From Planctomycetia bacterium (GTDB lineage Bacteria > Planctomycetota > Planctomycetia > Gemmatales > Gemmataceae), in assembly GCA_016795185.1 (NCBI GenBank), contig JAEUIF010000468.1, positions 1 through 14,093 of the forward strand: a stretch of DNA of 14,093 bases, given 5' to 3'. Made by a program: the position numbers and the translations under genes. How positions within the stretch are numbered: the first letter of the stretch is position 1; each line of letters opens with the position of its first letter. The notes below the pieces were generated by a model. It saw only the letters and a list, made by a program, of their open reading frames with translations. It made no database searches and was not told the origin of the DNA. This document shows positions 1,461-14,093 of this stretch, piece by piece.

Positions 1461-2987
1461 TCACGCCAGCGCCGCCCGCGCCCGCTTCACCAGTTCGTTG
1501 TCGCGGTCCTGGGTGCCGTGCAGGTTGAACATGCTCGACGCCAGGAAGCGATTGCGCAGCGCCGGCGTCGCGTGATAGAAATCCTCCAGCGCGGCCGAGC
1601 TAAACTTGTAATCGTGCGAATCGCGGCCTTTGAGAAAGATCAAACGTCGCGCGGCCGTCATCAGGGCCTGCGGGTCGGCGTCGGGCTGTTCGAGGTAGGC
1701 CAGCGTTTTCCGGGCGGCGGCCAGCCGGTCCTTGCTGACTTCCGTCAGCACTTCCTCGATCGCGCCCGGGCCGCTCGCCTGCGGCTTGAGGGCTTCCAGG
1801 GTATCGAGCTTGAGGTCGTCGCGGACTTGGCCGCGCTTCTTCATCGCCTCACGGAACATCGGCAGGAAAGCACCGGCTTGCAGCAGCAGGAAGCGACGAG
1901 TCTCATCGTTCGCGGAATTCTGGAAGCCGAAATACAGAGCGTTCGCCGTCGTGACCGTGTGCAGGCCGACGATGCCCGGCTGACGCATCAGCAACTCGCC
2001 GGCCCCGAGGAAGATGCCGTCCCACACGGAGTCCGGATCGACTTGCTTGTTCAGCAAATCCACGATCTGCTCGGAAACGTCGGCCGGCGAGCCGGTGCGC
2101 AACGTGGACAGGAAGCTCGCGGATGCGCTGGGGTCGGCCTTGCCGCGCTGCCAGTGGGCACGAATCTTCGCGAGCCGTTTGAGGTTGTCGCGCCCGGGTC
2201 GATCCTGTTCGGCGTCGCGCTGGGCGGGTTTGTCGCCCTCGTGGTCGAGCAGGCCGAACGCCAGCGAACGCATGATCGGCTCCGCGTGCCGCCAGCCAAT
2301 GGTCTGCAAGGTCCGCCAGGCATTGGCCACGTAGATGGCCTTGTGGCCGATGTCGCGAAAGTCGCGCGCCCCGAGCCGCCAGAACGCCTCGATGACCTCG
2401 ATGGCCCCGGCGTTACGGACGAACGAGGCGATGGCGCGGTCGGAGCCTTCCTCATCCCAGTTCCCCATCGCTTCGAGGAACCGCTCCCGGGCCTGATGCC
2501 CGGCGGGCAGCTTGGCTTCATCCACCGGCGGCATCGACCAGTTGCCTTCCTGGCGGTTGCGCTCCTGCGAGTTCTTGAAGTAGTCGAGCGACCAGAACAA
2601 CGGCAGCCAGCGGTCGCTGTCCGGAGCCGCCACGGTCGCCAGGTGCGCGGAGTTGACCACCAGCACCGCATGGAACTTGAAACCGACCGGCCGGGGCCGA
2701 ATGCCGCGCACGCCCGCCAGCATCAGAGCGGACAGCAGTTCCTGATAGGTCGTGCCCTTCTTGATCTTGTCGCCCACTGCTTCCAGCAGACGGTTCTGCG
2801 GCGTGTCCTCGATGAGCCGGACCAGCGGCTCGATGTCCGGGCTCAGTTGCACCTTGCCCGGCGCGGCCTTGACGTCGTCGGCCGAGAGCACCGGAAGTCC
2901 GCGCAGAAAAGCAAAGTCGCCCAGGCCCGCGACCGCGGTGGTTTGCAGCGAGCGACGAACGAATTCACGTCGATTGATGCGAGACAT
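1461..2987 (-). CDS. Tat-exported protein of unknown function
   Basis: 508-aa ORF whose N-terminus, MSRINRREFVRRSLQTTAVAGLG, is a typical twin-arginine signal. GGAGGG lies 7 nt upstream of the ATG. Family not recognised from sequence alone (possibly one of the Planctomycete DUF families). Confidence 0.6.
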   Translation of the reverse strand: MSRINRREFVRRSLQTTAVAGLGDFAFLRGLPVLSADDVKAAPGKVQLSPDIEPLVRLIEDTPQNRLLEAVGDKIKKGTTYQELLSALMLAGVRGIRPRPVGFKFHAVLVVNSAHLATVAAPDSDRWLPLFWSLDYFKNSQERNRQEGNWSMPPVDEAKLPAGHQARERFLEAMGNWDEEGSDRAIASFVRNAGAIEVIEAFWRLGARDFRDIGHKAIYVANAWRTLQTIGWRHAEPIMRSLAFGLLDHEGDKPAQRDAEQDRPGRDNLKRLAKIRAHWQRGKADPSASASFLSTLRTGSPADVSEQIVDLLNKQVDPDSVWDGIFLGAGELLMRQPGIVGLHTVTTANALYFGFQNSANDETRRFLLLQAGAFLPMFREAMKKRGQVRDDLKLDTLEALKPQASGPGAIEEVLTEVSKDRLAAARKTLAYLEQPDADPQALMTAARRLIFLKGRDSHDYKFSSAALEDFYHATPALRNRFLASSMFNLHGTQDRDNELVKRARAALA

Positions 2988-3156
2988 GGAAGCGCCCTCC
3001 GGGAAAGGTTCGGTCGGAGACGGCTACACGGGAACCTCAGCATTATACCCACGCGCTCACGGCTACAGCTAGCCGCAGGGTGGCACGTCCTCGGTACTCC
3101 GAGGGCGTGAGAACCGCTGCACCATTCCCAAACTTCAACAATGAAAACGATGTCCG

Positions 3157-4662
3157 CTATTCTTGCGCACTGGCTGGGGCGGTCGTGCCATTGGCTTCCG
3201 ACCGTCGCGCGCCGAACTGGTCCGCCAGCGCGAGTACGCTGGCCAGGAAACCGGCCAGGCCGTCCCCTGGCGCGCCGTCACCGCCGATGTGGACCGAACG
3301 CAGTTCGTCGGGTTTGGGCAGCGTCGCGGCGATCTCCGGCAGCCGGGCGATCAACTGCGCTTGCAGGTGGGCGGAAGATAGGTCGTTGTCGAGGGCGCGG
3401 CGCTGCTTCTCCACGCCCAGGTCGCGCTCGTGGCGAGCGGCGGTTGCCTCATGGACCAGGGTCTCCGTCTGGAGCCGCGCCGCGGTGCGCGAGCGTTCCA
3501 GTTCGGCCCTGAGCTGTTCCAGTTCGGCTTGCTGGCGCAGGGACTGCAACTCTTGCTGCACGCGCCGGCCTTGCACGTCCAGTTCGTGCAGCGCGCGTTC
3601 CAGCTCCGCCTCGCGCCGCGTCTTCTCGGTGGCCGTCTGTTCGACCAGGGCGCGGCGCGCGGTCTGCTGCTCGATGTCGAACCGTCGGACTTTCTCGCTT
3701 TCCTCGCGGTCGAAGCGCTCGCGCTCCTGCTGGCTGCGGACGTCGGCCAGGCGCCGCTCCACTTCCAGTTCCGCGATTTCCCGCGTCTGGCGGTTGTGCA
3801 GTTCCTGTGCGGCAATTTGCTGCTGGGCTTCCAGTTCCGCCAGGCGGGCCAGTTTTTCGCGGTCGGCCCGGAACGGCTTCTGCAAGTTCTCCCAGACGCG
3901 CGTGGAACTGACTACCGCTTCCTTGATTTGCACGGTAACGATCTTCAGGCCGAGCCCCGTCGAGCGGTCGGCGGCCTCGTCGCCCTCCGCCACCGCCCGC
4001 AGGCGGTGCGTCAACTCGGCGATGATCGGCTGCTTGTCGTTGAGGATGGCGTCGATGCTCATGGTGGCCACCTTGTCCTTGATGGCCGCTTCCGCCTGTT
4101 CGCGCAGCTGCACCTTGACGATGCGCATGCGGTCGCCGGGGTCCGAGAAATCGAGCCGCCGGTAGGCCGTCTTCACGTCGTCCACCACCCACTGGACGTA
4201 AGCCTGAACCAGCACTCCCTGGCGTTCGGCGCAGATGCAACGAGCGTTGATGAGCAGAGTTTGCACCGCCGCGGGGATAATAAGAAAGGCATCGGTGGCG
4301 GGACGGTAGTGGAACGAAAGGCCCAGCCCGATGTTGATGGGCTCGGCATGGCCCCGCCGCGTGTGGACGACATAGACATTGGGCGCGACGACGACGGTTT
4401 TCCAAAAGCCAAAGCCGGTAATGCGATAGTCGGACGGCACAATGCCGGCGGCGCCGCCGGCATCTCGGGGTGCCTCATCCTCAATTCCTTTCATCCCCTT
4501 CTTGAACTCGACGATTCCCTTGGCAAGCTCGCGTCCGATCCCTCGCGTGGCGATCTGTACTGGCGCCGGCGGAGCCGGCTGATGCCGAGGTTGCAGGTCG
4601 CGCTCGACCTGGGCCTGTTGATTCATGACCTCGTTGAGATAACTGTTGGCTTGCTCGATCAT
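3157..4662 (-). CDS. SPFH/band-7 domain protein, flotillin-like (YqiK/FloT-type) with a C-terminal Glu/Ala/Arg-rich coiled coil
   Basis: The SPFH core (YRITGFGFWKTVVVAPNVYVVHTRRG ... IVTVQIKE) is followed by an EAELE/RREAELER-type heptad-rich region and a flotillin-like C-terminus. Start is chosen at the internal ATG (4660-4662, codon 26 of the track ORF) because GGGAGAA sits 6 nt upstream; the track ORF runs to 4737. Confidence 0.7.
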   Translation of the reverse strand: MIEQANSYLNEVMNQQAQVERDLQPRHQPAPPAPVQIATRGIGRELAKGIVEFKKGMKGIEDEAPRDAGGAAGIVPSDYRITGFGFWKTVVVAPNVYVVHTRRGHAEPINIGLGLSFHYRPATDAFLIIPAAVQTLLINARCICAERQGVLVQAYVQWVVDDVKTAYRRLDFSDPGDRMRIVKVQLREQAEAAIKDKVATMSIDAILNDKQPIIAELTHRLRAVAEGDEAADRSTGLGLKIVTVQIKEAVVSSTRVWENLQKPFRADREKLARLAELEAQQQIAAQELHNRQTREIAELEVERRLADVRSQQERERFDREESEKVRRFDIEQQTARRALVEQTATEKTRREAELERALHELDVQGRRVQQELQSLRQQAELEQLRAELERSRTAARLQTETLVHEATAARHERDLGVEKQRRALDNDLSSAHLQAQLIARLPEIAATLPKPDELRSVHIGGDGAPGDGLAGFLASVLALADQFGARRSEANGTTAPASAQE

Positions 4663-4756
4663 GATTTGTTCTCCCGAGAACCGAGGTGCCCTATCTGGGT
4701 GTGGACTCGCCCGCCAACAGGTATGAGTCGGGAACACGCGAACGGGTTCGCGATGG

Positions 4757-5836
4757 TTACCGCTTCAGCCAGCGATCCAACCAGTCGTAAGCGACCTGGC
4801 GCACTTCCGACGGGAAGTTATGGTCGCAATCGGGGTAGCTGGCGCTCAGCCGGTCGCCCGCGCCGAGCAGTTCATAGACCGGCCGGGCGGCCCGGATGCA
4901 ATCCTTGACGCCGTCGGGATCGAAGTTGTGGTCCTTCACCGGCGCGCTGGCCAGGAAGGCGCGCGGCGCGAGCGCCGCCGTCACCTCGGTGAAATCGAAG
5001 GGCACCTTCTCCGGTTTGAGGTCGTAAACGGTACGAAGGCGCGGCATGTAGCCGTCGTGGCTCCAGCCCTTCAGGTCGCCCTTCATGTATTTCGGAAAGC
5101 TGCAAAAGCCGCAGTTGGAAACGATACAGCGAATGCGCGGATCGAACGCGGCCACAAACATGCTGTTGTGCCCACCTAGCGAATGGCCGATGACGCCGAT
5201 GCGTTTGGGATCGACTTCCGCCAGCGACTCCAGCAGATCGACGCAACGCATGTGGTTCCAGATGCCCTTCATGGTCGCGCTGACGTAGCCGTGCTGATAG
5301 GGATCGAACTGGTACTCGCCCATGTTGACGTAGTCCGGCGCGAGCGTCACGTAACCGCGTTCGGCCAGGTGGACGGCATAGGCCCGGTCTTCCTTCGGCC
5401 CCAGGCCCACCGCCACGCCTTTGCCCAGGTCGCGGCTGGTGGGGTGCAGGCACAGCACGGCCGGCAGCCTGCCCTTCGCGTCGAGCGGGATCAGCAAGTA
5501 AGCCGGCAGCCGATCGCCCTTCTCGACTGCGAGGGTAAGCTTGCGGCGCAGGTACTTCTCCATCTTCACTTCCTCGACGACTCGCACGTCGAGCGGCACC
5601 TTGCGACTGTCGTCGGGCAACGGCCCCATCACCTGCTGCATGTTCGCCAGGATGTGCGCCCGCCGCTTGGCCCAGTCGTCCGCGCTGCGGACCGGATGTT
5701 CTTTGTTGTCGGCGTCGCGCCAGACAAGGAGCTTCGTTTTGTCGGGATAGGTCGGGGTTGTTTGTGCCAGGCCGCTGCCCGGCAGCGCGGCGACCGCACC
5801 CAGACTAACGAGCAGCAACCTCGCGAATGGCTTCAT
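4757..5836 (-). CDS. secreted alpha/beta-hydrolase (dienelactone hydrolase / acetyl esterase-like), Sec signal peptide
   Basis: GHSLGG nucleophile elbow (GxSxG) in an alpha/beta-hydrolase-like context. The signal peptide MKPFARLLLVSLGAVAALPGSGLAQ begins at the internal ATG (5834-5836), which has AGGAG 9 nt upstream; the track ORF extends to 5896. Confidence 0.62.
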   Translation of the reverse strand: MKPFARLLLVSLGAVAALPGSGLAQTTPTYPDKTKLLVWRDADNKEHPVRSADDWAKRRAHILANMQQVMGPLPDDSRKVPLDVRVVEEVKMEKYLRRKLTLAVEKGDRLPAYLLIPLDAKGRLPAVLCLHPTSRDLGKGVAVGLGPKEDRAYAVHLAERGYVTLAPDYVNMGEYQFDPYQHGYVSATMKGIWNHMRCVDLLESLAEVDPKRIGVIGHSLGGHNSMFVAAFDPRIRCIVSNCGFCSFPKYMKGDLKGWSHDGYMPRLRTVYDLKPEKVPFDFTEVTAALAPRAFLASAPVKDHNFDPDGVKDCIRAARPVYELLGAGDRLSASYPDCDHNFPSEVRQVAYDWLDRWLKR

Positions 5837-5889
5837 CGGGCAAGGCTCCTTGTGGTAGAATGCGCGCAGTCTGCCTGCGAGGACCAAAC

Positions 5890-6156
5890 ATGGCAAGTAA
5901 ACTCTCCGCCCCGAACGACGCCGTTGAAATGTTCCACCGGTTGGTGGAACCGCGCAACGGCTAACTCACCAAGGCTGCGGCGCGCGTCATCCTCGGCTGG
6001 ACATTCGGGGAAGAAGATCGCACCCGCATGAATGAACTGGCCGAGAAGAATCGAGCGGGCGAACTCACGGCGGAGGAGCAAACCGAGTTGCACTGCTACC
6101 TGCGCGTGGGGAGCCTTCTCGATCTGCTGCACTCCAAGGCGCGCTTGAGCCTGTAA
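5890..6156 (+). pseudogene. small ORF (24 codons) with good RBS, followed after an in-frame TAA (5962-5964) by 63 further open codons in the same frame; possible interrupted small gene
   Basis: GAGGA lies 6 nt upstream of ATG 5890. The frame reads MASKLSAPNDAVEMFHRLVEPRNG*LTKAAARVILGWTFGEEDRTRMNELAEKNRAGELTAEEQTELHCYLRVGSLLDLLHSKARLSL*, with no alternative start near the beginning of the second segment. Confidence 0.3.
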
Positions 6157-6204
6157 CGGCAGGCCACTCGATCCAGCCCTGCCAAATCGCCGGTTGGCCT
6201 CAGT

Positions 6205-6455
6205 TCCGGAGCCCCGGAGGGGCGTAAGCGCTGTAGCCCACGGCGCGAGCCGTGGGACAACGATCCCAACCACACCTCAGCCCCGGCGGGGCGGAAGATA
6301 GTCCCAAACGGTTGCTGCACAAGCGAGGTGTCGAGCACGACGAGCCCTGTTCGCGCTGCTGCCTTTCGCCCCTCCGGGGCTGGGTGCATCGAGACGTTCC
6401 GTTCCCACGGCTTGCGCCGTGGGCTACCGTGCTATCGCCCCTCCGGGGCTAACAC
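6205..6455. repeat. Cluster of REP-like GC-rich palindromic units: 15-mer AGCCCCGGAGGGGCG (x3, both orientations) and hairpin CCCACGGC-NNNN-GCCGTGGG (x2); two 47-bp copies in inverted orientation (6210-6256 and 6404-6450)
   Basis: 6210-6256 reads agccccggaggggcgtaagcgctgtagcccacggcgcgagccgtggg. The reverse complement of 6404-6450 is agccccggaggggcgatagcacggtagcccacggcgcaagccgtggg, about 85% identical. An extra 15-mer copy lies at 6367-6381 and a variant cagccccggcggggcgg at about 6279-6295. All lie in the 3' intergenic region before the stop of the 6499-9528 gene. Confidence 0.8.
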
Positions 6456-6498
6456 AGCTTGCGACGCGCTCCAGCCGGGCGTCATTGGTCACTGTAAG

Positions 6499-9400
6499 TC
6501 ACTTCCGCCCCGCCACTCCCAGCAAATACGCGATCACATCCGCCAGGTCTTGCTTGGAGAGTTGCTTTTCCAGTTCGTCGGGCATCAGCGACTTGACCGT
6601 GGCCTGGATCTCGTCGATCTCGCCGCGCAGGATGGTGTCCTCCGCTTTCTCGGCCCGGCGCAGCGTGATGCTGCCGGGGGCGTTGACGGCCAGGATGCCC
6701 GTCAGGAAGCGGCCGTTCTTCGTTGTCACCACGTAGTTCAGGTAGCGCGGATCGACCTCGCGGCTGGGGTCGAGGATGTCGATGACCAGCCCTTCCGGAG
6801 TCTTGGTCTTCAGGGCCGCCAGCAGATCCGCGCCGACCTCCGCGCCTTCGTTCTCCAGGCGGTGACAGACGCTGCAATTCTTCTTGAAGACCGCCTTGCC
6901 ACGCGGCGCGTCGCCGGCCAGGTCCAGAGCGGTGCGGTAGTCGTCGATGACCTTCTGGCGGTCGCCGGTGGTGCGGGCGGCGAAGAGTTGTGCGACGCGC
7001 TTGCGCACCTCGGCATCCGGATGCTTGCGCAGCAGGTCCACGCGGGCGGCTTCGATCTGCCCTGGCAATACCTGCTTCTTCTCGACGGCGTCGAGCAGCT
7101 GCCGCACCCGCTCCGGCCGGCCGAGCAGGGCTTCGACGGCTTCGCGGCGCAGGTCGGGCGGGTAGCTGTTCCACGCAGCCAGCAGCAGGTCGGCGATCTT
7201 CGGGCTGTCCTGGGCGGAGAGAGCACGCACGGCGGCGAGCTGCACTTCCGGTGGGTGCTGCGGCGCGAGCAAGCCCGGCAACACATCGCCGCCGACGGCG
7301 AACGGCCCGACGCCCAGCAGACGCACGGCGGCGAGCCGTTCCGGCAGCGGTTGCTTCTCGTCGCGTGCCGTTTGCGCCGCCCGCTCGAAGAACGGCCGGG
7401 CCTTGCCAACCGCTTCCTTCAGTGCGGGTGAGGGTTCTTCCCAAAGCTTGCGCAGGGGCCGCTGGGCGATTTGCAGTCCTTGTCCCAGCCCGTCCAGCAC
7501 CGCCAGTTGCCAGGCGGGACTGACCGAGTCACCGCCAAGCAGCGTCAGGGCGCGGGCCAGGTCGGCATCGCTGTTGCTCGCGCCGATCAGCGTGGCCAGT
7601 CGGACCACGAATTGCCGTTCCTCGGCGGTCAGGTTTCGCACGAACTCGCGATCCTGGCTCAGCGTCGCCAGCAGGTCCGGCGCCTTGCCCTTCGCGGAGC
7701 TGAGGATCGCCAGCTGGAACCAGGATTGGCCGGCGTCGCGCCGCGCCAGCTTGGCCAGGGCCGTAGTCAATTCGGGAGCATCGGCCGCGCCCAGGGTGAA
7801 GGCCAATTGAAAGCGCACCCGCGCCTGGGCATGGTCCACCAGCGGCGTCATGCTTTGCCGCAGCGTCGCCGATGCGGCCAGTCGGTCCTCGGCCAGCCGC
7901 AGCGCTTGTTCGACGACATAGGGGTTGGCGGCTTTCAGGTTGGCTTCGATCAGTTCATCGTCCAGGGCCTTCAGGCCGTGCAGCGTCCAGAGTGCGTGCA
8001 TGCGGCCTTGGCCCGCCGGCACGCGGTCCAGCACCTTGTCTTCGCGCGCTAGCTTCTTCAAGGGCGCGACGGCGGCCTGGTCGTGGCGTTCGATCAGCAG
8101 CCGCTGGGCGGTCAGCCGTCGCCAGCTGTTTGGGCTGCCCAGCTGCTGGACCAACTCGGCGGCCGATGCCTTGCTCAGGGCGGGCAAGTGCTGCGGTTGC
8201 TGGGCGTCGCGCGCGAGCGTTTCGGGCACGATGCGCCAGATGCGGCCGCGCCCCCGGCTATCCAGGTTCAGCTTCTTTTTGATGTCGTCGGGCAGCGATA
8301 GCGGCGTCTCAATGGCTTCGCGGTAGAAATCACAAACGTAGATCGCACCGTCGGGACCGATAGTCAGGTTGACGGGGCGGAACCAGTTGTCGGTGGAAGC
8401 CAGGAACTCGCAACCCTCATCGGCCCGCTTGGCGGTGAAGATGCTGCCCTGATCGATCAAGATATCCCGATGGATCAAATTGTTCGCCGGCTCGCAGACG
8501 AAGCTCTGGCCGTAGTATGCCTCCGGAAACAGCCCGCCGTTGTAGACCACCGGACTGCACGCGGACGTGATGAAGCCGCCCGGCACCAGTTCCGTGGGCG
8601 AGAAGCGCTTGGAGTCCGTCCCGTCCTTGCGGCGCGTGGTGCGTTCGACGCGCCAGCCTTCAAACGGACTGATGCGATGCACCTGGCAGGCCGCGCCGTG
8701 GTCGGGAATGTCGATGGTCACGGCAGGTACGGCCAGCGCCGGGTTGCGGCGCAGGTAGTGGTCGGACAGCACAATCTGCCGGAGGTGCTGGCTGTTGGTG
8801 GCAGTGAACCAGTGCTGTCCGTCGTCGGCGGCCAGGCCGAACTGCCCGCCGCCGCTGGTCGGTTCCAGGCTGCCCGGCCGCGCCGGCTGGAAGCGGATGC
8901 CCCGGCCCCGCAGCGCCACGCCCGCTCCCAAGCCGTCGCCCGTGATGGTGCCGCCCTTGCCGCCCGCATTGGCGTAGACCCAGTTGTCCAGGCCCCATTG
9001 CAGGCTGTTCAGCAGCTGCTGAATGTTGTCGAGATCGAAGCCGGTGTAGAGGACTTTCTTTTCGTAGCCCTTCGCGGTCTTCTCGAAGTAGAGCAGGTCC
9101 GGAGCGACCGCCGCCAGCAGCCCGCCCTTGTACGGCATCACGGACGTGGGAAAGCGCAGGTTCTCGGCGAACGTGCTGCTGCTCTCGTAGTAGCCGTCAC
9201 CGTTCTTATCTTCGAGCAGCTTGATCTTGCCCGTGGAGATGTCGCCGGTGCCGAGGCCGCCGTTGGGATAGCCGCGCATCTCGGCGACATACATCCGGCC
9301 GTCCTCGTCGAAGGCTAGCGCCACCGGATCGACGACTTCCGGTTCGGCGGCGACCAGTTCGACCTTGAAGCCCTTGAGGATGCGGAAGGTGGCCAGTTCT

Positions 9401-9528
9401 TCGCGCGGCGACAGCGGCCCAGCCGGCGGGTCGCTCGGCTTGTCGGCGGCGGAAAGCAGGACCGCGCCGCCCGTGAGCACCAGCAGCATCAAACCGCGCG
9501 CGAGCAATCCGAAACGCGACATGGCCAC
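6499..9528 (-). CDS. Planctomycete/Verrucomicrobia-type large exported protein: N-terminal putative membrane-bound dehydrogenase (beta-propeller) domain, central HEAT-like repeats, C-terminal c-type heme-binding domain (CSVCH)
   Basis: Signal peptide, then FRILKGFKVELVAAEPEVVDPVALAFDEDGRMYVAEMRGYP, which is typical of the Pirellula/Verrucomicrobium dehydrogenase-domain family. The C-terminus has GKAVFKKNCSVCHRLENEG, a CxxCH heme motif. The start may be GTG at 9528 or ATG at 9522. Confidence 0.75.
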   Translation of the reverse strand: MAMSRFGLLARGLMLLVLTGGAVLLSAADKPSDPPAGPLSPREELATFRILKGFKVELVAAEPEVVDPVALAFDEDGRMYVAEMRGYPNGGLGTGDISTGKIKLLEDKNGDGYYESSSTFAENLRFPTSVMPYKGGLLAAVAPDLLYFEKTAKGYEKKVLYTGFDLDNIQQLLNSLQWGLDNWVYANAGGKGGTITGDGLGAGVALRGRGIRFQPARPGSLEPTSGGGQFGLAADDGQHWFTATNSQHLRQIVLSDHYLRRNPALAVPAVTIDIPDHGAACQVHRISPFEGWRVERTTRRKDGTDSKRFSPTELVPGGFITSACSPVVYNGGLFPEAYYGQSFVCEPANNLIHRDILIDQGSIFTAKRADEGCEFLASTDNWFRPVNLTIGPDGAIYVCDFYREAIETPLSLPDDIKKKLNLDSRGRGRIWRIVPETLARDAQQPQHLPALSKASAAELVQQLGSPNSWRRLTAQRLLIERHDQAAVAPLKKLAREDKVLDRVPAGQGRMHALWTLHGLKALDDELIEANLKAANPYVVEQALRLAEDRLAASATLRQSMTPLVDHAQARVRFQLAFTLGAADAPELTTALAKLARRDAGQSWFQLAILSSAKGKAPDLLATLSQDREFVRNLTAEERQFVVRLATLIGASNSDADLARALTLLGGDSVSPAWQLAVLDGLGQGLQIAQRPLRKLWEEPSPALKEAVGKARPFFERAAQTARDEKQPLPERLAAVRLLGVGPFAVGGDVLPGLLAPQHPPEVQLAAVRALSAQDSPKIADLLLAAWNSYPPDLRREAVEALLGRPERVRQLLDAVEKKQVLPGQIEAARVDLLRKHPDAEVRKRVAQLFAARTTGDRQKVIDDYRTALDLAGDAPRGKAVFKKNCSVCHRLENEGAEVGADLLAALKTKTPEGLVIDILDPSREVDPRYLNYVVTTKNGRFLTGILAVNAPGSITLRRAEKAEDTILRGEIDEIQATVKSLMPDELEKQLSKQDLADVIAYLLGVAGRK

Positions 9529-9571
9529 CCCTTGTATTGGCTTGCTACAGCAGTTTGCGACTGAATGGAGC

Positions 9572-9620
9572 GGTCCGCACAGCGGACCATACGGTATTCT
9601 GTAGGGTCCGCTGTGCGGAC
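9572..9620. promoter_or_regulatory. Pair of 7-bp-stem hairpins GGTCCGC-ACA-GCGGACC (9572-9588) and GGTCCGC-TGT-GCGGAC (9605-9620), mutually inverted, flanking a palindromic ATACGGTAT centre; candidate operator or terminator structure
   Basis: Seen directly in the intergenic region between the 3' end of the 9678-11036 gene and the start of the 6499-9528 gene. Confidence 0.4.
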
Positions 9621-9677
9621 TATTCCTCCGTGTGGTCCATCAATCAGCGAACCGCGCCAAACCGTAAACGGTTCGGG

Positions 9678-11036
9678 TTACTTGGTCAATTCGTGGACCT
9701 TGGCGACGATGCGTTCCTCGATGGCGGGCGACCACTTGGTCGGGAACCCGTAATAAATCATGGAGGAATCCGCCTCGTAACCGCCTTCTTTCAAGACCCG
9801 CGCCGACGGGATGTAGGCCATCACGTCGTTGGCGTAGGCCGTCACCCAGACTGGCGGGCCGCCGCTCAGTTCCTTCTTCAGCCGCAGGGCGTAATCGACC
9901 ACCACTTCGCCGCCCAGCCCGATCCACAGCAGGTCGTTGCCCAGCCGCCAGACCTGCACCGGGTAGTGGGGATAATGATCGTCGAGCTTGCCCTTGGTTT
10001 CCAGCGTTTTCAGCAGGCGCGTCGCGCGGTTGCGCAGCGCCAGGTTCTTGCTCAGGGTATCGGCCGTCAGCTGGTCCTTCGAGGGCAGTTCGCCCAACGG
10101 CAGCGTCACCGACGCCAGTTTCGCCTTGAAGGGACCGCGCACCGGCGACATCGGCTTGCGCAGCACATCGCCGACGGCTTCCGCCAGCCCCCGGCCGTGC
10201 GTCTGGGCATGTTCCACCTGGCCGCGCGGCTGCGGGTTGGCGTCGCCCGCGCAGCCGGCCCAGAACAGGGCGACCGCGCCCGGATGCTTCGCCTCCAGGT
10301 CGGCCTGGGCGAAGCCCGCGTAGTCGCCGCACCACTGGTAAAAGTTCAGCGTGGTGTTATGGCAAGCGTAGCCGAAGACCACCGCCCGCAGCTTGCCCTC
10401 GGGCGTTTCGACCTTCAGCACCGGGACATCGTGATCCACGGGACCGGCCGGATCGCGCAGATTGATGACGCCCTTCGGCGATGCCTCGCGCCGGTTCATC
10501 GCGAAACGAATGGTGCCCTTGCCGTGCGCCAGCCGCGCGGGCCGCAGGTCCTTCAGGGCCGCCTCGACGACCTCCACCATCCAGCGGTGCAGTTGCTCGG
10601 TGTAGGCTTCGATCTTCTTCGCGTGCTCCGGCCCCATCGGGTACATGTCGGCCAGGTTCTCGCGCAGCACCGGCCCGCAGTGGGTGTGCGAACTGGTGAG
10701 CATCAGGCGCTCGCGCGGCAGCCCGGTGCGTTTGCGCACCTCCTCGGCCACCGGCTCCGCCAGACTGCGCGGGAAGCCGATCAGGTCGCTGGTCAGCAGG
10801 ACCAGCTTGCCCCCGGCGGCGTCTTCGAGGGCCACCGCCTTGAGGAACAGGTCGTGCGTCTTGCCCTCGGCCGGCTTGGTCCGGGAGGCGTAGCCGGCCA
10901 TCCACAACGGCTCCGACGGTGTGACGACCTTCACCGCCACGCCGGCCTTGAGGGCGGACTCGTCGGCCGCGCGGACCGGCAGCAGGGCCAGCAGCGTCAA
11001 GCACAGAGCGATGCCTGTCGCAAGGCAGCGGGACAT
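9678..11036 (-). CDS. secreted neutral/alkaline (non-lysosomal) ceramidase-like hydrolase, N-terminal domain type
   Basis: The signal peptide MSRCLATGIALCLTLLALLPVRAADE starts at the internal ATG (11034-11036), which has GGGAG 8 nt upstream; the track ORF runs to 11165. The region AGVAVKVVTP..WMAGYA...LMLTSSHTHCGP matches the GKADITG..VGMMGYS...ATHTHSGP layout of neutral ceramidases. It is shorter than the Pseudomonas enzyme and lacks the C-terminal tail domain. Confidence 0.6.
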   Translation of the reverse strand: MSRCLATGIALCLTLLALLPVRAADESALKAGVAVKVVTPSEPLWMAGYASRTKPAEGKTHDLFLKAVALEDAAGGKLVLLTSDLIGFPRSLAEPVAEEVRKRTGLPRERLMLTSSHTHCGPVLRENLADMYPMGPEHAKKIEAYTEQLHRWMVEVVEAALKDLRPARLAHGKGTIRFAMNRREASPKGVINLRDPAGPVDHDVPVLKVETPEGKLRAVVFGYACHNTTLNFYQWCGDYAGFAQADLEAKHPGAVALFWAGCAGDANPQPRGQVEHAQTHGRGLAEAVGDVLRKPMSPVRGPFKAKLASVTLPLGELPSKDQLTADTLSKNLALRNRATRLLKTLETKGKLDDHYPHYPVQVWRLGNDLLWIGLGGEVVVDYALRLKKELSGGPPVWVTAYANDVMAYIPSARVLKEGGYEADSSMIYYGFPTKWSPAIEERIVAKVHELTK

Positions 11037-11520
11037 GGCAGGACTCCCGAAAATGGTTCGAGGTCGGTTGGCAACGCGGACGGAAAGGTAAACCCCCGTC
11101 CGGGCACGGAGTCGCAGGGAGAGTCCATCCAGGCCGGTCAGTGCCGCCGATTGGATGGGGGGCATCTACCGACTACCCTCCGTGCCAAGAAAAATCCGGC
11201 TGGCACCGAGCCTCAAAAACCCCAATGTTTTGCCACTGCGCGCCAAAATGCGTTTCCCGCCAGACTCCCCTTGAACCGCCGCACCTCGATTTGGCAGGAT
11301 GGCGGCTGCGGAGCGCCCGGGGCTGCCCGTGATGCGCCGCTCGCGGCTTCGCCGGGCGCGCTTCCCTCGGGCCGCGCCACCCGCCAGCTGGCATCCGCCT
11401 CCGTCCGTGCTACAATTCGCTGGTTCCACGACTCCACCCCGGAGTTCGCCCGTGACGGCCGTCTCCCAGCCAACCACCGTGCCCTCGCAACCCCGGTTGC
11501 TCGACCGGGTCCGGTAGGCC

Positions 11521-12444
11521 TTGCGCGTCCGGCATTACAGCCTGCGCACCGAGGAAGCCTACGTCGCCTGGATCAGACGCTACATCTACTTTCACCACAT
11601 TCGCCACCCGGACGCGATGGGCGCGGCGGAGATCAACGCCTTCCTGACCGACCTCGCCGTCAACGGCCGGGTCGCCGCCTACACCCAGTCCCAGGCCCTG
11701 TGCGCCTTGCTGTTCCTGTACACCACCGTGCTCGAACGGCCCTTCGGCGAGCTGGGCGATGTCATCCGGGCGCGCCGGCCCAAACGCTTACCGGTGGTGC
11801 TGACTCGGCCGGAAGTGCTCCGCGTCCTGGAGCACCTGACCGACACGTATCGCCTGATCGGCCGGTTGCTCTACGGCAGCGGCCTGCGCCTGATTGAAGG
11901 CTTGCGGCTGCGGGTCCAGGACGTGGATTTCGGCCGCCACGAAATCACCGTGCGCCAGGGCAAGGGCGACAAGGACCGTCGGACCATGCTGCCCAGCTGT
12001 ATTGCAGCCGACCTACAGGCGCACATCGAACGGGTCCGCGCGCTGCACCAGCGCGACCTGGCCGAGGGGTACGGCCGGGTCTACCTGCCGCACGCGCTGG
12101 AGCGCAAGCTGCCGCACGCGGCTGCCGAGTTCGGCTGGCAGTACGTGTTTCCAGCTGCCCGGCGCTCGCGCGACCCGCGTTCGGGCGCGGTGCGACGCCA
12201 CCACGCCCACGAAGCGGCCATTTCGCGCGCCCTCACCGACGCCGTCCGCCGCTCCGGTATCCGCAAGCGGGCGACCAGTCATTCCTTCCGGCACAGTTTT
12301 GCGACGCACCTACTGGAAGCCGGCCACGACATTCGGACGGTGCAAGAACTACTCGGCCACGAAGACGTAAGTACCACGATGATCTACTGCCACGTACTGA
12401 ACAAGGGCGGCCTGGGAGTGCCCAGCCCCCTGGACGGGTTCTGA
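11521..12444 (+). CDS. intI: tyrosine recombinase with IntI-specific insertion (integron integrase-like); TTG-start ORF whose conserved N-terminus lies upstream of an in-frame TAG (11515-11517), see findings
   Basis: The [19 protein letters not shown] and [14 protein letters not shown] motifs are present, along with the IntI-specific insertion [37 protein letters not shown]. The catalytic-region motifs RHSFATHLL and [16 protein letters not shown] are also present. Similarity to IntI1/VchIntIA across the whole length is strong and recognisable from memory. Confidence 0.92.
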
Positions 12445-12595
12445 GCTGCGCAAGTATCATTATGGTGTTATTTTGCGCGGATTTTGCAGACGTTATGATT
12501 GTAATAATTTAACATCAATAGACTTGTGTTAATTCTCGCCGGCTGGGAGCAAAGAGTGTTATTTTGCGCCGGCGCAAGATAAACACATGTTAGGC
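12445..12595 (+). other. putative attI site and cassette-promoter region: AT-rich (~40% GC) with two 14-bp direct repeats GTGTTATTTTGCGC (12465-12478, 12556-12569) and core site GTTAGGC (12589-12595), followed by a second core-like GTTAAAT (12596-12602)
   Basis: Seen in sequence. The layout parallels attI1, where two GTTA-containing IntI-binding direct repeats sit upstream of the GTTAGGC simple site. Confidence 0.5.
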
Positions 12596-13207
12596 GTTAA
12601 ATACAACCGAGGCTCAACGATTGGACGCATGGGACCGACTCCGAGCGCTATTTGACACCGATGATGGCGGGTTGTATGACATCCGATTAACGGGCCTTGG
12701 TGAAGCAAGTTTGGTAGCAGCATTTGAGTTCATTCGATCCCGCTCAAAGGTTACGCCGGATGCATTGTTTTGGCACACGACCTTGCAAAAGGACGAGCGA
12801 GTGGCTGACCACCCAGATGCGCCTCGGCTTGTGGCTCAGGGCATAGCCGAACCATTTCATGTGCTCGCGTCTAGTCTTGAGTTCGCCGGCGCCATCATCC
12901 CGGATTTGGGTGTGTTCGTTTGGCCGGATGAGTTGACGTTGGACTACCGCATGGGACCAGAGTGGGATCGACCGCAACTCATCGCGTTATTTGAATTGCT
13001 ACGGCAATTGGTCGCCGTCTCAGATGGCGGAGTCGGATTGGGCCGGCACGTTCTGCCGCAGGTGGACGCCGAATTTGTGCGCGAGTGGCGGGCATACTGT
13101 CAGGTATGCGGCGAAAACGCCTAACCAACCGTTGCACCTGACGCGGCGGCATTACGGTTCTTCAGAGTTCAACGTCTCACCAGCCGCCGCGCAGGTGAAC
13201 GGTAGCG
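12590..13207 (+). mobile_element. gene cassette 1 (from G|TT of attI core to G of attC1 R')
   Basis: Bounded by GTTAGGC (12589-12595) and GTTCGGC (13207-13213). It contains one ORF and attC1. Confidence 0.65.
12621..13124 (+). CDS. cassette-encoded hypothetical protein (167 aa), ~50% GC, TTG start
   Basis: GAGG lies 8 nt upstream of TTG 12621. GC content is clearly below the ~67% host average. The TAA stop falls inside the attC R'' box GCCTAAC. No family recognised. Confidence 0.6.
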   Translation: MDAWDRLRALFDTDDGGLYDIRLTGLGEASLVAAFEFIRSRSKVTPDALFWHTTLQKDERVADHPDAPRLVAQGIAEPFHVLASSLEFAGAIIPDLGVFVWPDELTLDYRMGPEWDRPQLIALFELLRQLVAVSDGGVGLGRHVLPQVDAEFVREWRAYCQVCGENA

Positions 13208-13213
13208 TTCGGC
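13119..13213 (+). other. attC site 1 (95 bp): R'' GCCTAAC ... R' GTTCGGC, imperfect palindrome
   Basis: gcctaac-caaccgttg-cacctg-acgcggcggc ... gccgccgcg-caggtg-aacggtagc-gttcggc. The arms pair with single-base bulges (extrahelical bases). It opens with the same GCCTAAC as the aadA1 59-be. Confidence 0.7.
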
Positions 13214-13756
13214 CAAGAGAGGCTTCCCGTGGGGTTCAGGTTCCGGGGCTTCTTCTCGGACGCCGATGAAGCCGCGATGGCTGCGGCGGTAAGCCGCTGG
13301 CCGTTCTGCACGGCCAAGCCCGTCGTCGATCCGTTCCGCGGCTTCGGCCTGCGTGCCCCGGACCCCGACCGAGAGGCCGACTCCGACGAGGAGTACGAGC
13401 GACTGCTGGAGTTGCCGTTCGCGGTGGAGCGGGGCTTGGCGGAGTTCAGCCTGGGGTTCCCGGACGCGACGTTCGTGTTCATCGACGCCGATTGCGTCGG
13501 CGGCACCTGCGTGTATACCGGGTTCGTGGTACGAGCCGGTGCGGTCCACCTGAGCGTAGCGGACGTGCAGCCGGGGTCGGAGCCGTTGCAGCGACTCCTT
13601 CAGCCGCTCGGTGTGCAGCTACGGTCCGGCTACTTCGCGCCGTTCACACGCGGGTACTGGTAGGCGGCCGAACCAGGCGCTGCAGCAGACGGCGGGGGCA
13701 TGTAGGTTTTCCAGGGTCACAGCTCACTCGGCCCCCGCCGCTGTTGAGCTTGGTCG
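13208..13756 (+). mobile_element. gene cassette 2
   Basis: Runs from TT of attC1 R' (13208) to G of attC2 R' (13756). It contains one ORF and attC2. Confidence 0.6.
13229..13663 (+). CDS. cassette-encoded hypothetical protein (144 aa), GTG start
   Basis: AGAGAGG lies 6 nt upstream of GTG 13229, and the ORF starts 16 nt after the attC1 R' box. An alternative ATG is at 13277. No family recognised. Confidence 0.5.
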   Translation: MGFRFRGFFSDADEAAMAAAVSRWPFCTAKPVVDPFRGFGLRAPDPDREADSDEEYERLLELPFAVERGLAEFSLGFPDATFVFIDADCVGGTCVYTGFVVRAGAVHLSVADVQPGSEPLQRLLQPLGVQLRSGYFAPFTRGYW

Positions 13757-13762
13757 TTCGGC
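13667..13762 (+). other. attC site 2 (96 bp): R'' GCCGAAC ... R' GTTCGGC (perfectly complementary boxes), imperfect palindrome
   Basis: gccgaac-caggcgctgcagcag-acggcgggggc ... gcccccgccg-ctgttgagcttggtc-gttcggc. The L''/L' G5/C5 cores pair and the arms carry bulges. Confidence 0.65.
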
Positions 13763-13780
13763 GGCGGAAGCGGAGTCGCG

Positions 13781-13960
13781 GATGGACCCATACCGGCAGC
13801 TCGCGGCGGGTCCCAGGACGGGGTCGCCGCGCCGGTTCGTGGCCCCCCGGTCCTGGGGCCTCCCGTCCCCGGCCCGCTCCGCCGGGGGGCACGGCTCAGC
13901 GCGTTCAGGGGCGACCGGCGGTGACGGCCGAACCACCGCGTTCAGCTGCCTCCTCTAGCC
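13781..13960 (+). CDS. possible small cassette ORF (59 aa, low complexity, Arg/Gly/Pro-rich)
   Basis: GGAG lies 6 nt upstream of ATG 13781. The stop TAG at 13958-13960 lies just after an attC-like start (GCCGAAC 13927-13933). This could be a spurious high-GC ORF. Confidence 0.2.
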
Positions 13961-14056
13961 CGCATTTCTCACCAGAATAAGGAACCGGCTTGCTTCCGGA
14001 GCGTCAAGTGATTGTAGCCGCAGTCACTTGCGTTTCCTGGAAGGAGCAAGCCGGTC

Positions 14057-14093
14057 ATGACACAGTGTAGCAGCCCGCCGTTGACTTTTCACG
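14057..14093 (+). CDS. 5' end of an ORF running off the window (MTQCSSPPLTFH...)
   Basis: AAGGAG (14041-14046) lies 10 nt upstream of ATG 14057. The SD is embedded in the right arm of a long hairpin (13984-14055). Confidence 0.3.
   Translation, partial: MTQCSSPPLTFH

What the first reader, a model, noticed from the sequence alone, without database searches (positions are those of the whole stretch)
11452..11523. intI reading frame interrupted by an in-frame amber codon exactly where IntI1 has a Glu
The frame GTG(11452)...[29 protein letters not shown] aligns with IntI1 ...[25 protein letters not shown]. The TAG at 11515-11517 therefore splits a conserved N-terminus that is about 21 codons long. 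The upstream GTG has a GGAG RBS 7 nt away. Three readings are possible: a recent nonsense mutation (GAG to TAG), re-initiation at TTG 11521, or amber suppression. The first would make this an IntI pseudogene, which is common in chromosomal integrons. A pseudogene would mean a frozen array. Readthrough would be unusual.
Basis: partly seen in the sequence, partly recalled or inferred. Interest (0 to 1): 0.6.

Follow-up and report, generated by a model that had tools for sequence, protein, structure and literature searches.

The report
Integron integrase gene with early stop
A single premature stop codon near the start of an otherwise intact integron integrase gene in a planctomycete genome most likely makes it a recent pseudogene, which is a common and well-documented fate for these genes.

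Summary
TAG at 11515-11517 is in frame with GTG 11452 (GGAG 7 nt upstream) and with the 307-codon ORF TTG 11521..TGA 12444. Reading through it gives a full-length integron integrase (TIGR02249, 468.9 bits). All 120 closest homologs carry P[KR]LLDR[VL]R-x-A[CL]RVRHYS across the site, and the window encodes [19 protein letters not shown]. None starts at RHYS.

TAG is an ordinary stop here: two Pfam-supported genes and one cassette ORF in the window end in TAG. No tRNA gene lies in the window, and the mRNA around the codon shows no special structure. The rest of the gene is intact, so the lesion is a single, apparently recent nonsense substitution.

The ancestral codon could be CAG or GAG. The column is variable, and the closest homolog (80% identical) has Gln.

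The window is a contig of a Planctomycetia MAG. Its deposited annotation appears to give intI a locus tag but no protein. The "frozen array" inference is too strong, because that intact homolog probably comes from the same MAG.

I could not check read support, and no close ortholog covers the site.

Verdict: an ordinary intI pseudogene (a third or more of chromosomal intI genes are inactivated). Low interest.

The parts
11388..11416 (+). sigma-70-like promoter candidate for intI (CTGGCA, 17-nt spacer, TACAAT with TG extension)
   Evidence: 9 of 12 consensus matches. Three sites were found in 11100-12700 against 0.2 expected from shuffles. It sits 36 nt upstream of GTG 11452. This is a consensus match only.
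11441..11444 (+). Shine-Dalgarno-like GGAG, 7 nt upstream of GTG 11452
   Evidence: Duplex with the anti-SD is -6.1 kcal/mol at proper spacing, comparable to other genes in the window.
11452..11514 (+). native 5' end of intI: 21 codons (VTAVSQPTTVPSQPRLLDRVR). The last 8 encode the start of the conserved first helix.
   Evidence: GC3 is 0.90, like the rest of the gene.
11515..11517 (+). premature in-frame amber codon (TAG) at codon 22 of intI
   Evidence: It lies opposite IntI1 E22, VchIntIA E11 and P0001 Q19, in the middle of the first helix of the modelled homolog.
11518..12444 (+). remainder of the intI reading frame. The listed ORF runs from TTG 11521 to TGA 12444 (307 aa). The catalytic residues R, K, H-x-x-R, H and Y and the IntI-specific insertion are intact.
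   Evidence: The 307-aa ORF covers TIGR02249 profile positions 9-314 of 315 at 461.4 bits. Its alignment to VchIntIA (2a3v) has E 5e-90, with a single one-residue gap.
12431..12460 (+). promoter-like site at the 3' end of intI, reading into the cassettes (candidate Pc)
   Evidence: TGGACG, 18-nt spacer, TATCAT. Consensus match only.
12465..12596 (+). attI-like region. It holds direct repeats GTGTTATTTTGCGC at 12465 and 12556, a variant copy at 12526, and GTTAGGC at 12590-12596 as the candidate crossover site.
   Evidence: 2 exact copies against 0.06 expected. GC drops to about 0.51 here. The assignment as attI is by analogy and was not tested.
12621..13124 (+). cassette 1 ORF (167 aa, no Pfam family, GC3 0.60)
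   Evidence: Deposited as MBL8794903.1, hypothetical protein JNM56_13425.
13119..13213 (+). attC-like site 1 (GCCTAAC ... GTTCGGC, imperfect hairpin with bulged bases)
   Evidence: bottom strand folds at -32.1 kcal/mol, z -6.8. Also.
13229..13663 (+). cassette 2 ORF (144 aa, no Pfam family); it ends in TAG
   Evidence: Deposited as MBL8794904.1, JNM56_13430.
13667..13762 (+). attC-like site 2 (GCCGAAC ... GTTCGGC)
   Evidence: The alignment with attC1 has 77% mean column identity. The fold z-score is only -1.8.

Best explanation
This is the integrase gene (intI) of a chromosomal integron in a Planctomycetia MAG. A single base substitution has turned codon 22 into an amber stop.

Transcription from the upstream promoter-like site and initiation at GTG 11452 would give only a 21-residue peptide. 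The 307 codons downstream have no start codon with usable signals that would preserve the first helix. The gene is therefore a pseudogene, or at best severely attenuated.

Everything else in the gene is intact, so the lesion looks recent. The ancestral codon was probably CAG (Gln) or GAG (Glu).

The consequence is that this integron cannot move its own cassettes. Its attI-like site and attC sites remain available to an integrase supplied in trans.

What is shown: the stop, its frame, the homology across it, normal use of TAG as a stop, and the integrity of the rest of the gene. What is inferred: loss of activity, recency, and the identity of the ancestral codon.
For: (1) Homology runs across the stop. 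All 120 closest homologs have P[KR]LLDR[VL]R-x-A[CL]RVRHYS and the window has [19 protein letters not shown]. TIGR02249 and PF13495 both begin at residue 16, upstream of the stop. The 307-aa ORF only begins at profile position 9.

(2) Expression signals point to GTG 11452, not TTG 11521. A promoter-like site lies at 11388-11416 and GGAG lies 7 nt before the GTG. TTG 11521 has only an AGG abutting it.

(3) The AlphaFold2 model of the 80%-identical homolog P0001 (mean pLDDT 81.9) puts the first helix at residues 13-23 (LLDRVRQALRV). The stop corresponds to Q19, in the middle of the helix. A TTG-initiated product would keep 3 of its 11 residues.

(4) TAG is a normal stop in this genome. The SelA-like gene, the Band 7 gene and the cassette 2 ORF all end in TAG. 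The window holds no tRNA gene. The RNA around the stop shows no unusual structure (z -0.48).

(5) There is no other lesion. The catalytic R, K, H-x-x-R, H and Y residues and the IntI-specific insertion align to VchIntIA. Five of 153 highly conserved columns deviate. Two of these deviations are shared with P0001. Of the other three, one search shows Gln in VchIntIA at the K156Q column and Lys rather than Ser at the S77Y column; that IntI1 has Ala at the S235A column rests on IntI1 sequence recalled from memory.

(6) The deposited annotation agrees. The contig's proteins are MBL8794897-4904. There are six locus-tag steps but only five protein accessions between JNM56_13395 and JNM56_13425. Neither the 307-aa nor the 275-aa product exists in the collection.

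(7) The prior is high. Nearly one third of chromosomal intI genes are pseudogenes (PMC2426708). 43-46% are predicted to be inactivated, especially where LexA control is missing, as in Planctomycetes (PMC3108266). Inactivating mutations close to the intI1 start arise quickly under selection after integron acquisition (PMC3510236).
Against: No reads were available and no orthologous sequence from a close relative covers position 11515, so the base call itself is unverified. The two near-identical Logan contigs stop at 11239 and restart at 11705.

The 307-aa ORF loses only 8 of 315 profile positions. I found no experimental data on N-terminal deletions of IntI, so loss of activity is an inference.

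The stop lies 3 nt before an in-frame TTG, so termination followed by re-initiation cannot be excluded. The absence of any further decay is equally compatible with a product that is still under selection.
Confidence: 0.75

Rival explanations
1. The TAG is leaky. A low level of integrase is still made, either full-length by near-cognate readthrough (for example Gln insertion) or lacking the first 23 residues by termination and re-initiation at TTG 11521. On this reading the stop acts as an attenuator of a costly enzyme rather than as a knockout.
For: TTG 11521 lies 3 nt after the stop and is in frame. The downstream 307 codons show no second lesion and no clear excess of damaging substitutions. 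The ORF still scores 461.4 bits against TIGR02249. Integrase activity is costly and selection favours lower activity (PMC3510236). For class 2 integrons, intI2 activity can be recovered by suppressing its internal stop (PMC2426708).
Against: TTG 11521 has no properly spaced Shine-Dalgarno sequence. No RNA structure flanks the stop. The removed residues L-L-D-R-x-R are present in 114-119 of 120 homologs and form most of the first helix. No relative shows the TAG to be conserved. An intact downstream ORF is also what a very recent knockout looks like.
Confidence: 0.12
2. The TAG is not the true sequence of the organism. It could be a consensus or assembly error, or a minority allele fixed in the MAG consensus, in which case the integrase is intact.
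For: The window is a metagenome-assembled contig. The gene carries only this one lesion. In an independent Logan assembly of SRR30217687, the contigs break on both sides of the intI 5' region, at 11239 and 11705. Local variation is one possible cause of such breaks.
Against: Single-base substitution errors are uncommon in consensus assemblies. The flanks agree between the two assemblies (100% over 1990 nt and 99.8% over 1634 nt). The prior for genuine intI inactivation is high, at 30-46% (PMC2426708, PMC3108266). Contig breaks have many other causes, including k-mers shared with the paralogous intI.
Confidence: 0.1
3. The gene naturally starts at TTG 11521 (the upstream helix being dispensable), or TAG is decoded as an amino acid in this organism.
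For: The ORF lister gives TTG 11521 as the first start after the stop.
Against: None of the 120 closest homologs starts there and all encode the upstream motif. The upstream frame matches the family consensus at 8 of 8 positions. Two Pfam-supported genes and one cassette ORF in the window end in TAG, and no suppressor tRNA is in the window.
Confidence: 0.02

Closest known systems
intI pseudogenes of chromosomal integrons (surveyed across bacterial genomes; prevalent in Xanthomonas)
   Same: An integron integrase inactivated by an internal stop while the cassette array remains in place. Reported for nearly one third of chromosomal intI genes (PMC2426708) and for 43-46% in a later survey, where it correlated with loss of LexA control. 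Planctomycete LexA does not recognise the E. coli-type box (PMC3108266).
   Different: The host is an uncultured Planctomycetia MAG. There is a single lesion, very early (codon 22), in an otherwise intact gene.
intI2* of class 2 integrons (Tn7 family): ochre codon at position 179
   Same: One nonsense codon in an otherwise intact intI. It is thought to explain a stable cassette array, and rare alleles without the stop encode an active enzyme (PMC5559693, PMC2426708).
   Different: The intI2* stop (TAA) is mid-gene and yields a 178-aa fragment. It is fixed and widespread on a mobile element. Here the stop is TAG at codon 22, yields a 21-aa peptide, and is seen in one lineage only.
Experimentally evolved intI1 knock-outs in Acinetobacter baylyi (Starikova et al. 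2012, PMC3510236)
   Same: [quoted passage not shown] The integron here is also lineage-specific at its locus: relatives at 92% and about 84% nucleotide identity lack it.
   Different: Those were frameshifts observed in the laboratory. Here the lesion is a nonsense substitution, and selection for it is only inferred.
Integrons with intI transcribed toward the cassettes (Treponema denticola type)
   Same: intI and the cassette ORFs and attC sites lie on the same strand, with the attI-like region downstream of intI. The atypical layout is described in PMC3607928.
   Different: This concerns the context, not the stop codon. The closest relatives from Planctomycetes and Acidobacteriota share the layout, so it is a property of the clade.

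Membership tests
Integron integrase (IntI; TIGR02249) | Score above the curated cutoff of the integron-integrase profile | tested here: met
   468.9 bits with the stop read through and 461.4 bits for the 307-aa ORF, against a cutoff of 265.
Integron integrase (IntI; TIGR02249) | Tyrosine-recombinase catalytic residues R, K, H-x-x-R, H, Y | tested here: met
   GLRL, QGKG, HSFRHS, LGH and IYCH align to the corresponding VchIntIA (2a3v) motifs. The assignment of catalytic roles comes from established knowledge of the family.
Integron integrase (IntI; TIGR02249) | IntI-specific additional segment between the conserved patches (ALERK..P....W.Y.FP) | tested here: met
   [23 protein letters not shown] aligns to VchIntIA LPTALKEKYPNAPYEFRWHYLFP without a gap in this segment.
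Integron integrase (IntI; TIGR02249) | Adjacent attI site and attC-bounded cassettes | tested here: met
   Two attC-like imperfect hairpins with RYYYAAC-like and GTTRRRY-like ends lie at 13119-13213 and 13667-13762. An attI-like AT-rich region with direct repeats and GTTAGGC lies at 12465-12596. No dedicated attC covariance model was available.
Integron integrase (IntI; TIGR02249) | Uninterrupted reading frame encoding the complete N-terminal SAM-like domain | tested here: not met
   TAG at codon 22 falls inside PF13495 and TIGR02249 profile positions 1-8. The locus is therefore an intI gene by descent but not an intact one.
Bacterial pseudogene by nonsense mutation | An in-frame stop inside sequence homologous to intact family members on both sides | tested here: met
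Bacterial pseudogene by nonsense mutation | The stop codon is decoded as a stop in this organism | tested here: met
   Two Pfam-supported genes and one cassette ORF in the window end in TAG.
Bacterial pseudogene by nonsense mutation | The base call is supported by reads, and no active product is made | not testable with these tools
   No reads were available. The Logan contigs miss 11240-11704. Activity needs an experiment.
Programmed stop-codon readthrough / recoding | The stop is conserved among diverged relatives, or a recoding signal flanks it | tested here: not met
   None of 120 homologs and none of 80 related loci has a stop at this column. No stable local RNA structure was found. No strain-level relatives cover the site, so conservation within the lineage is untested.

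The most novel reading that the evidence does not exclude
The early amber codon is kept as a translational attenuator. Rare near-cognate readthrough (Gln would restore the residue seen in the closest homolog) or re-initiation at the TTG 3 nt downstream would supply trace amounts of integrase. That would keep the enzyme's cost low in a host that lacks E. coli-type LexA control of intI. It would also explain why the downstream 307 codons show no decay.
Probability: 0.06. Interest if true: 0.5.

Novelty: new member of a known kind. Interest (0 to 1): 0.15.

Why it matters
It matters little beyond annotation. This is one more example of the well-known tendency of chromosomal integrons to lose their integrase, here in an uncultured planctomycete. 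The integron is specific to this lineage at its locus, and the lesion lies close to the start codon, as in laboratory evolution experiments.

In practice the locus should be scored as an integron with an inactivated intI, not as an intact one starting at TTG. The array should not be assumed immobile, because the same MAG probably encodes a second, intact integrase.

Tried and rejected
(1) Looking for the source or a strain-level ortholog covering the TAG.
- The genome contigs protein scan gave a best hit of 72%.
- The metagenome contigs exact DNA pattern with N at the T gave 0 hits.
- The metagenome protein scan gave a best hit of 69%.
- Exact-product look-ups of the 307-aa, 275-aa and 72-aa ORFs and of P0001 were all not on record.
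- A second protein search with the N-terminal 142 aa gave nothing above 82% identity.
- Ten guessed partial products of a hypothetical Logan contig spanning 11210-11734, with Q, E or the stop, were not in the collection. These negatives are uninformative.

(2) Using neighbouring genes to reach orthologous loci. This found near-identical Logan contigs that stop short of the TAG. It also found relatives at 92% and about 84% identity that lack the integron altogether. No orthologous codon could be read.

(3) A test for decay at conserved columns. The excess was mild (5 deviations against a mean of 1.97, with 11 of 120 homologs as deviant). It largely dissolved once lineage-shared substitutions and substitutions seen in other IntI proteins were removed. 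It is not evidence either way.

(4) My first attC regex with ungapped complementarity missed even the window's own sites. I replaced it with a fold-based scan.

(5) Literature on N-terminal deletions of IntI. I found only that N-terminal extensions such as an MBP tag are tolerated (PMC2095811). The VchIntIA structure paper is not held. One literature query was badly chosen and returned irrelevant papers.

(6) Rejected: genetic-code reassignment or pyrrolysine-type recoding.

(7) Rejected: a natural start at TTG.

Full report
**Observation**

The coordinates are exact. GGAG lies at 11441-11444 and GTG at 11452. TAG at 11515-11517 is 21 codons downstream in the same frame. TTG follows at 11521, and the frame stays open to TGA 12442-12444.

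With the TAG read through, the 330-residue product matches NCBIfam TIGR02249 'integron integrase' at 468.9 bits (cutoff 265). Profile position 1 falls on residue 16. Pfam finds PF13495 at residues 16-99 and PF00589 at 117-316. The solved VchIntIA structure (2a3v) matches at E 5e-90.

BLASTP places the TAG opposite IntI1 Glu22, and VchIntIA has Glu11 there.

**Does the stop interrupt ancestral coding sequence?**

Yes. I aligned the 120 best homologs from a 5.8-billion-protein collection (all 314-503 aa, mostly Gemmataceae and other Planctomycetia). Every one carries P[KR]LLDR[VL]R-x-A[CL]RVRHYS. The window encodes [19 protein letters not shown].

The residues just upstream of the stop are close to invariant: L 119/120, L 118/120, D 114/120, R 118/120. 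No homolog begins at RHYS.

The TAG column itself is variable (A 34, H 33, E 21, Q 15, D 6, R 3). The closest homolog, P0001 (80% identical), has Gln. Among 80 related loci where the motif could be located, 15 have a codon one step from TAG: GAG 9, CAG 4, TCG 2. The ancestral codon therefore cannot be named. A CAG-to-TAG transition is at least as plausible as GAG to TAG.

Only the last 8 of the 21 upstream codons are conserved. The first 13 are variable across the family.

**Is TAG a stop in this organism?**

Two Pfam-supported genes in the window end in TAG: the SelA-like gene at 145-1344 and the Band 7 gene at 3157-4737. The cassette ORF at 13229-13663 does too. The window holds no tRNA gene. 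The mRNA from the presumed transcription start to 11600 folds no better than shuffled sequence (z -0.48). Nothing suggests recoding.

**Which start is the native one?**

A sigma-70-like site with a TG extension lies at 11388-11416 (CTGGCA, 17-nt spacer, TACAAT). GGAG lies 7 nt before GTG 11452, with a duplex energy of -6.1 kcal/mol, similar to other genes in the window. TTG 11521 has only an AGG directly abutting it, at an unusable spacing.

A 307-aa product from TTG 11521 would begin at profile position 9 of 315 and lose 7.5 bits. An AlphaFold2 model of P0001 (mean pLDDT 81.9) places the first helix at residues 13-23, LLDRVRQALRV. The stop corresponds to Q19 in the middle of that helix, and a TTG-initiated protein would keep 3 of its 11 residues.

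I infer that such a protein would be poorly made and impaired. No experimental data on N-terminal truncation of IntI were found; only N-terminal extensions are reported as tolerated (PMC2095811).

**State of the rest of the gene**

There is no second stop or frameshift. The catalytic R, K, H-x-x-R, H and Y residues and the IntI-specific segment align to VchIntIA.

The window deviates at 5 of 153 columns that are at least 95% conserved. The homolog mean is 1.97, and 11 of 120 homologs deviate as much or more. Two of the deviations (N80S, T313C) are shared with P0001. Of the other three (S77Y, K156Q, S235A), one search shows that VchIntIA has Gln at the K156Q column and Lys rather than Ser at the S77Y column. 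That IntI1 has Ala at the S235A column rests on IntI1 sequence recalled from memory. This is not evidence of decay. The lesion is single and apparently recent.

**Context**

intI is transcribed toward its cassettes. Downstream of it come the following features:
- An AT-rich attI-like region (GC about 0.51). It holds direct repeats GTGTTATTTTGCGC at 12465 and 12556, a variant copy at 12526, and GTTAGGC at 12590.
- A cassette ORF at 12621-13124.
- An attC-like hairpin at 13119-13213 (bottom strand z -6.8).
- A second cassette ORF at 13229-13663.
- A second attC-like site at 13667-13762.

The same 'intI toward array' layout appears in the closest relatives from Planctomycetes (L001, L002, L005, L006) and Acidobacteriota (L029, L051). 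A Rhodanobacter locus (L023) has the attC-like sites on the 5' side of intI. This atypical orientation is known from Treponema (PMC3607928).

**Source and deposited annotation**

Exact look-ups show the window is a 14,093-bp contig of a MAG labelled 'Planctomycetia bacterium'. Its proteins are:
- MBL8794897.1 (145-1344)
- MBL8794898.1 (JNM56_13395, 1461-2987)
- MBL8794902.1 (ceramidase-like gene)
- MBL8794903.1 (JNM56_13425, cassette 1)
- MBL8794904.1 (JNM56_13430, cassette 2)

Between JNM56_13395 and JNM56_13425 there are six locus-tag steps but only five protein accessions. One tag therefore has no protein. Its most likely position is JNM56_13420, between the ceramidase-like gene and cassette 1, which is intI annotated as a pseudogene. 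This is an inference from the numbering. It is consistent with the 307-aa and 275-aa products being absent from the collection.

**A probable second integrase**

P0001 is an intact 327-aa integron integrase, 80% identical to this one. Its accession is MBL8795874.1, it has the same organism label, and it lies on an 8,621-bp contig. That accession is 972 numbers after this contig's proteins. It is therefore probably encoded in the same MAG.

This is an inference. I could not fetch the contig, and bins can be chimeric. If it holds, the cassette array is not necessarily frozen, because an integrase could be supplied in trans. More than one fifth of integron-bearing lineages carry more than one intI (PMC2426708).

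**Relatives**

A Logan assembly of SRR30217687 contains essentially the same strain. One contig equals window 9606-11239 at 99.8%, and another equals 11705-13694 at 100%. The 465 nt between them, which hold the TAG, are not covered. Guessed partial products were not found.

More distant relatives are colinear with window 1461-11116 but have unrelated sequence beyond. They contain no intI. These are L163 at 92% nucleotide identity and L162 and L164 at about 84%. The integron is therefore specific to this lineage at this locus.

**Interpretation**

The best explanation is an intI pseudogene created by one nonsense substitution (confidence 0.75). It fits the literature:
- Nearly one third of chromosomal intI genes are pseudogenes (PMC2426708).
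- 43-46% are predicted to be inactivated, in correlation with absent LexA control. Planctomycete LexA does not use the E. coli box (PMC3108266).
- Functional integrases are costly, and knock-outs close to the start codon sweep quickly after integron acquisition (PMC3510236).
- The classic parallel is intI2*, with its ochre codon at position 179 (PMC5559693).

Two rivals remain open. Leaky expression by readthrough or by re-initiation at the TTG 3 nt downstream has confidence 0.12. A consensus error or minority allele in the MAG has confidence 0.10. A natural TTG start and amber decoding are contradicted by the data (0.02).

One further consequence follows from the co-oriented layout. An early stop leaves about 930 nt of untranslated intI mRNA. 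That could reduce read-through transcription into the cassettes by polarity. A separate promoter-like site at 12431-12460 could drive the cassettes independently. This is inference only.

**Verdict**

The feature is real and ordinary: a new member of a known kind. Interest is low (0.15). Three of its claims are not: the specific ancestral codon, the extent of N-terminal conservation, and the 'frozen array' corollary.

Noticed in passing
window 11452-13762: intI is on the same strand as the cassette ORFs and attC sites and is transcribed toward them. The attI-like region lies downstream of its stop codon. This is the atypical Treponema-type layout. The closest planctomycete and acidobacterial relatives share it (L001, L002, L005, L006, L029, L051), while a Rhodanobacter locus (L023) has the attC-like sites on the 5' side of intI.
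   Followed up: partly
window 12465-12596: Three direct repeats lie between intI and the first cassette: GTGTTATTTTGCGC at 12465 and 12556 (0.06 expected by chance) and a variant at 12526. A palindrome lies at 12559-12582 and GTTAGGC at 12590. This resembles the accessory integrase-binding repeats of attI sites.
   Followed up: partly
protein P0001 (MBL8795874.1; contig not retrievable): An intact integron integrase, 80% identical, carries the same organism label and a protein accession 972 numbers after this contig's proteins. It is probably a second intI in the same MAG.
   Followed up: partly
window 11117 onward; loci L162, L163, L164: There is a synteny break. Relatives at 92% and about 84% nucleotide identity are colinear with window 1461-11116 but have unrelated sequence and no intI beyond. 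The integron is therefore lineage-specific at this locus.
   Followed up: yes
loci L161 (window 9606-11239) and L165 (window 11705-13694): A Logan assembly of run SRR30217687 contains essentially the same strain (99.8% and 100% identity). Its contigs break on both sides of the intI 5' region. The three mismatches cluster at window 9857-9879.
   Followed up: partly
window 6404-6450 (+): Rfam Acido-Lenti-1 sRNA motif, 38.6 bits against a gathering score of 37. It lies in the gap between the hydrolase gene and the DUF7133/cytochrome c gene, both on the minus strand.
   Followed up: no
window 12621-13124: The cassette 1 ORF has GC3 of 0.60, against 0.79-0.87 for the surrounding genes and 0.87 for cassette 2. 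This suggests a foreign origin. Neither cassette ORF matches a Pfam family.
   Followed up: no
window 13770-14093: After attC2 comes a very GC-rich stretch with several inverted repeats (13804-13865) and a 72-nt nested hairpin (13984-14055). The hairpin lacks the RYYYAAC and GTTRRRY ends of the two attC sites. No convincing ORF is present. It could be an ORF-less cassette or another structured element, and the window ends before it can be resolved.
   Followed up: no
one search hit list: Many database proteins that match the IntI N-terminus are short (130-247 aa) and carry only the SAM-like domain. This suggests that truncated or fragmented intI genes are common among environmental relatives. 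Contig ends probably explain some of them.
   Followed up: no
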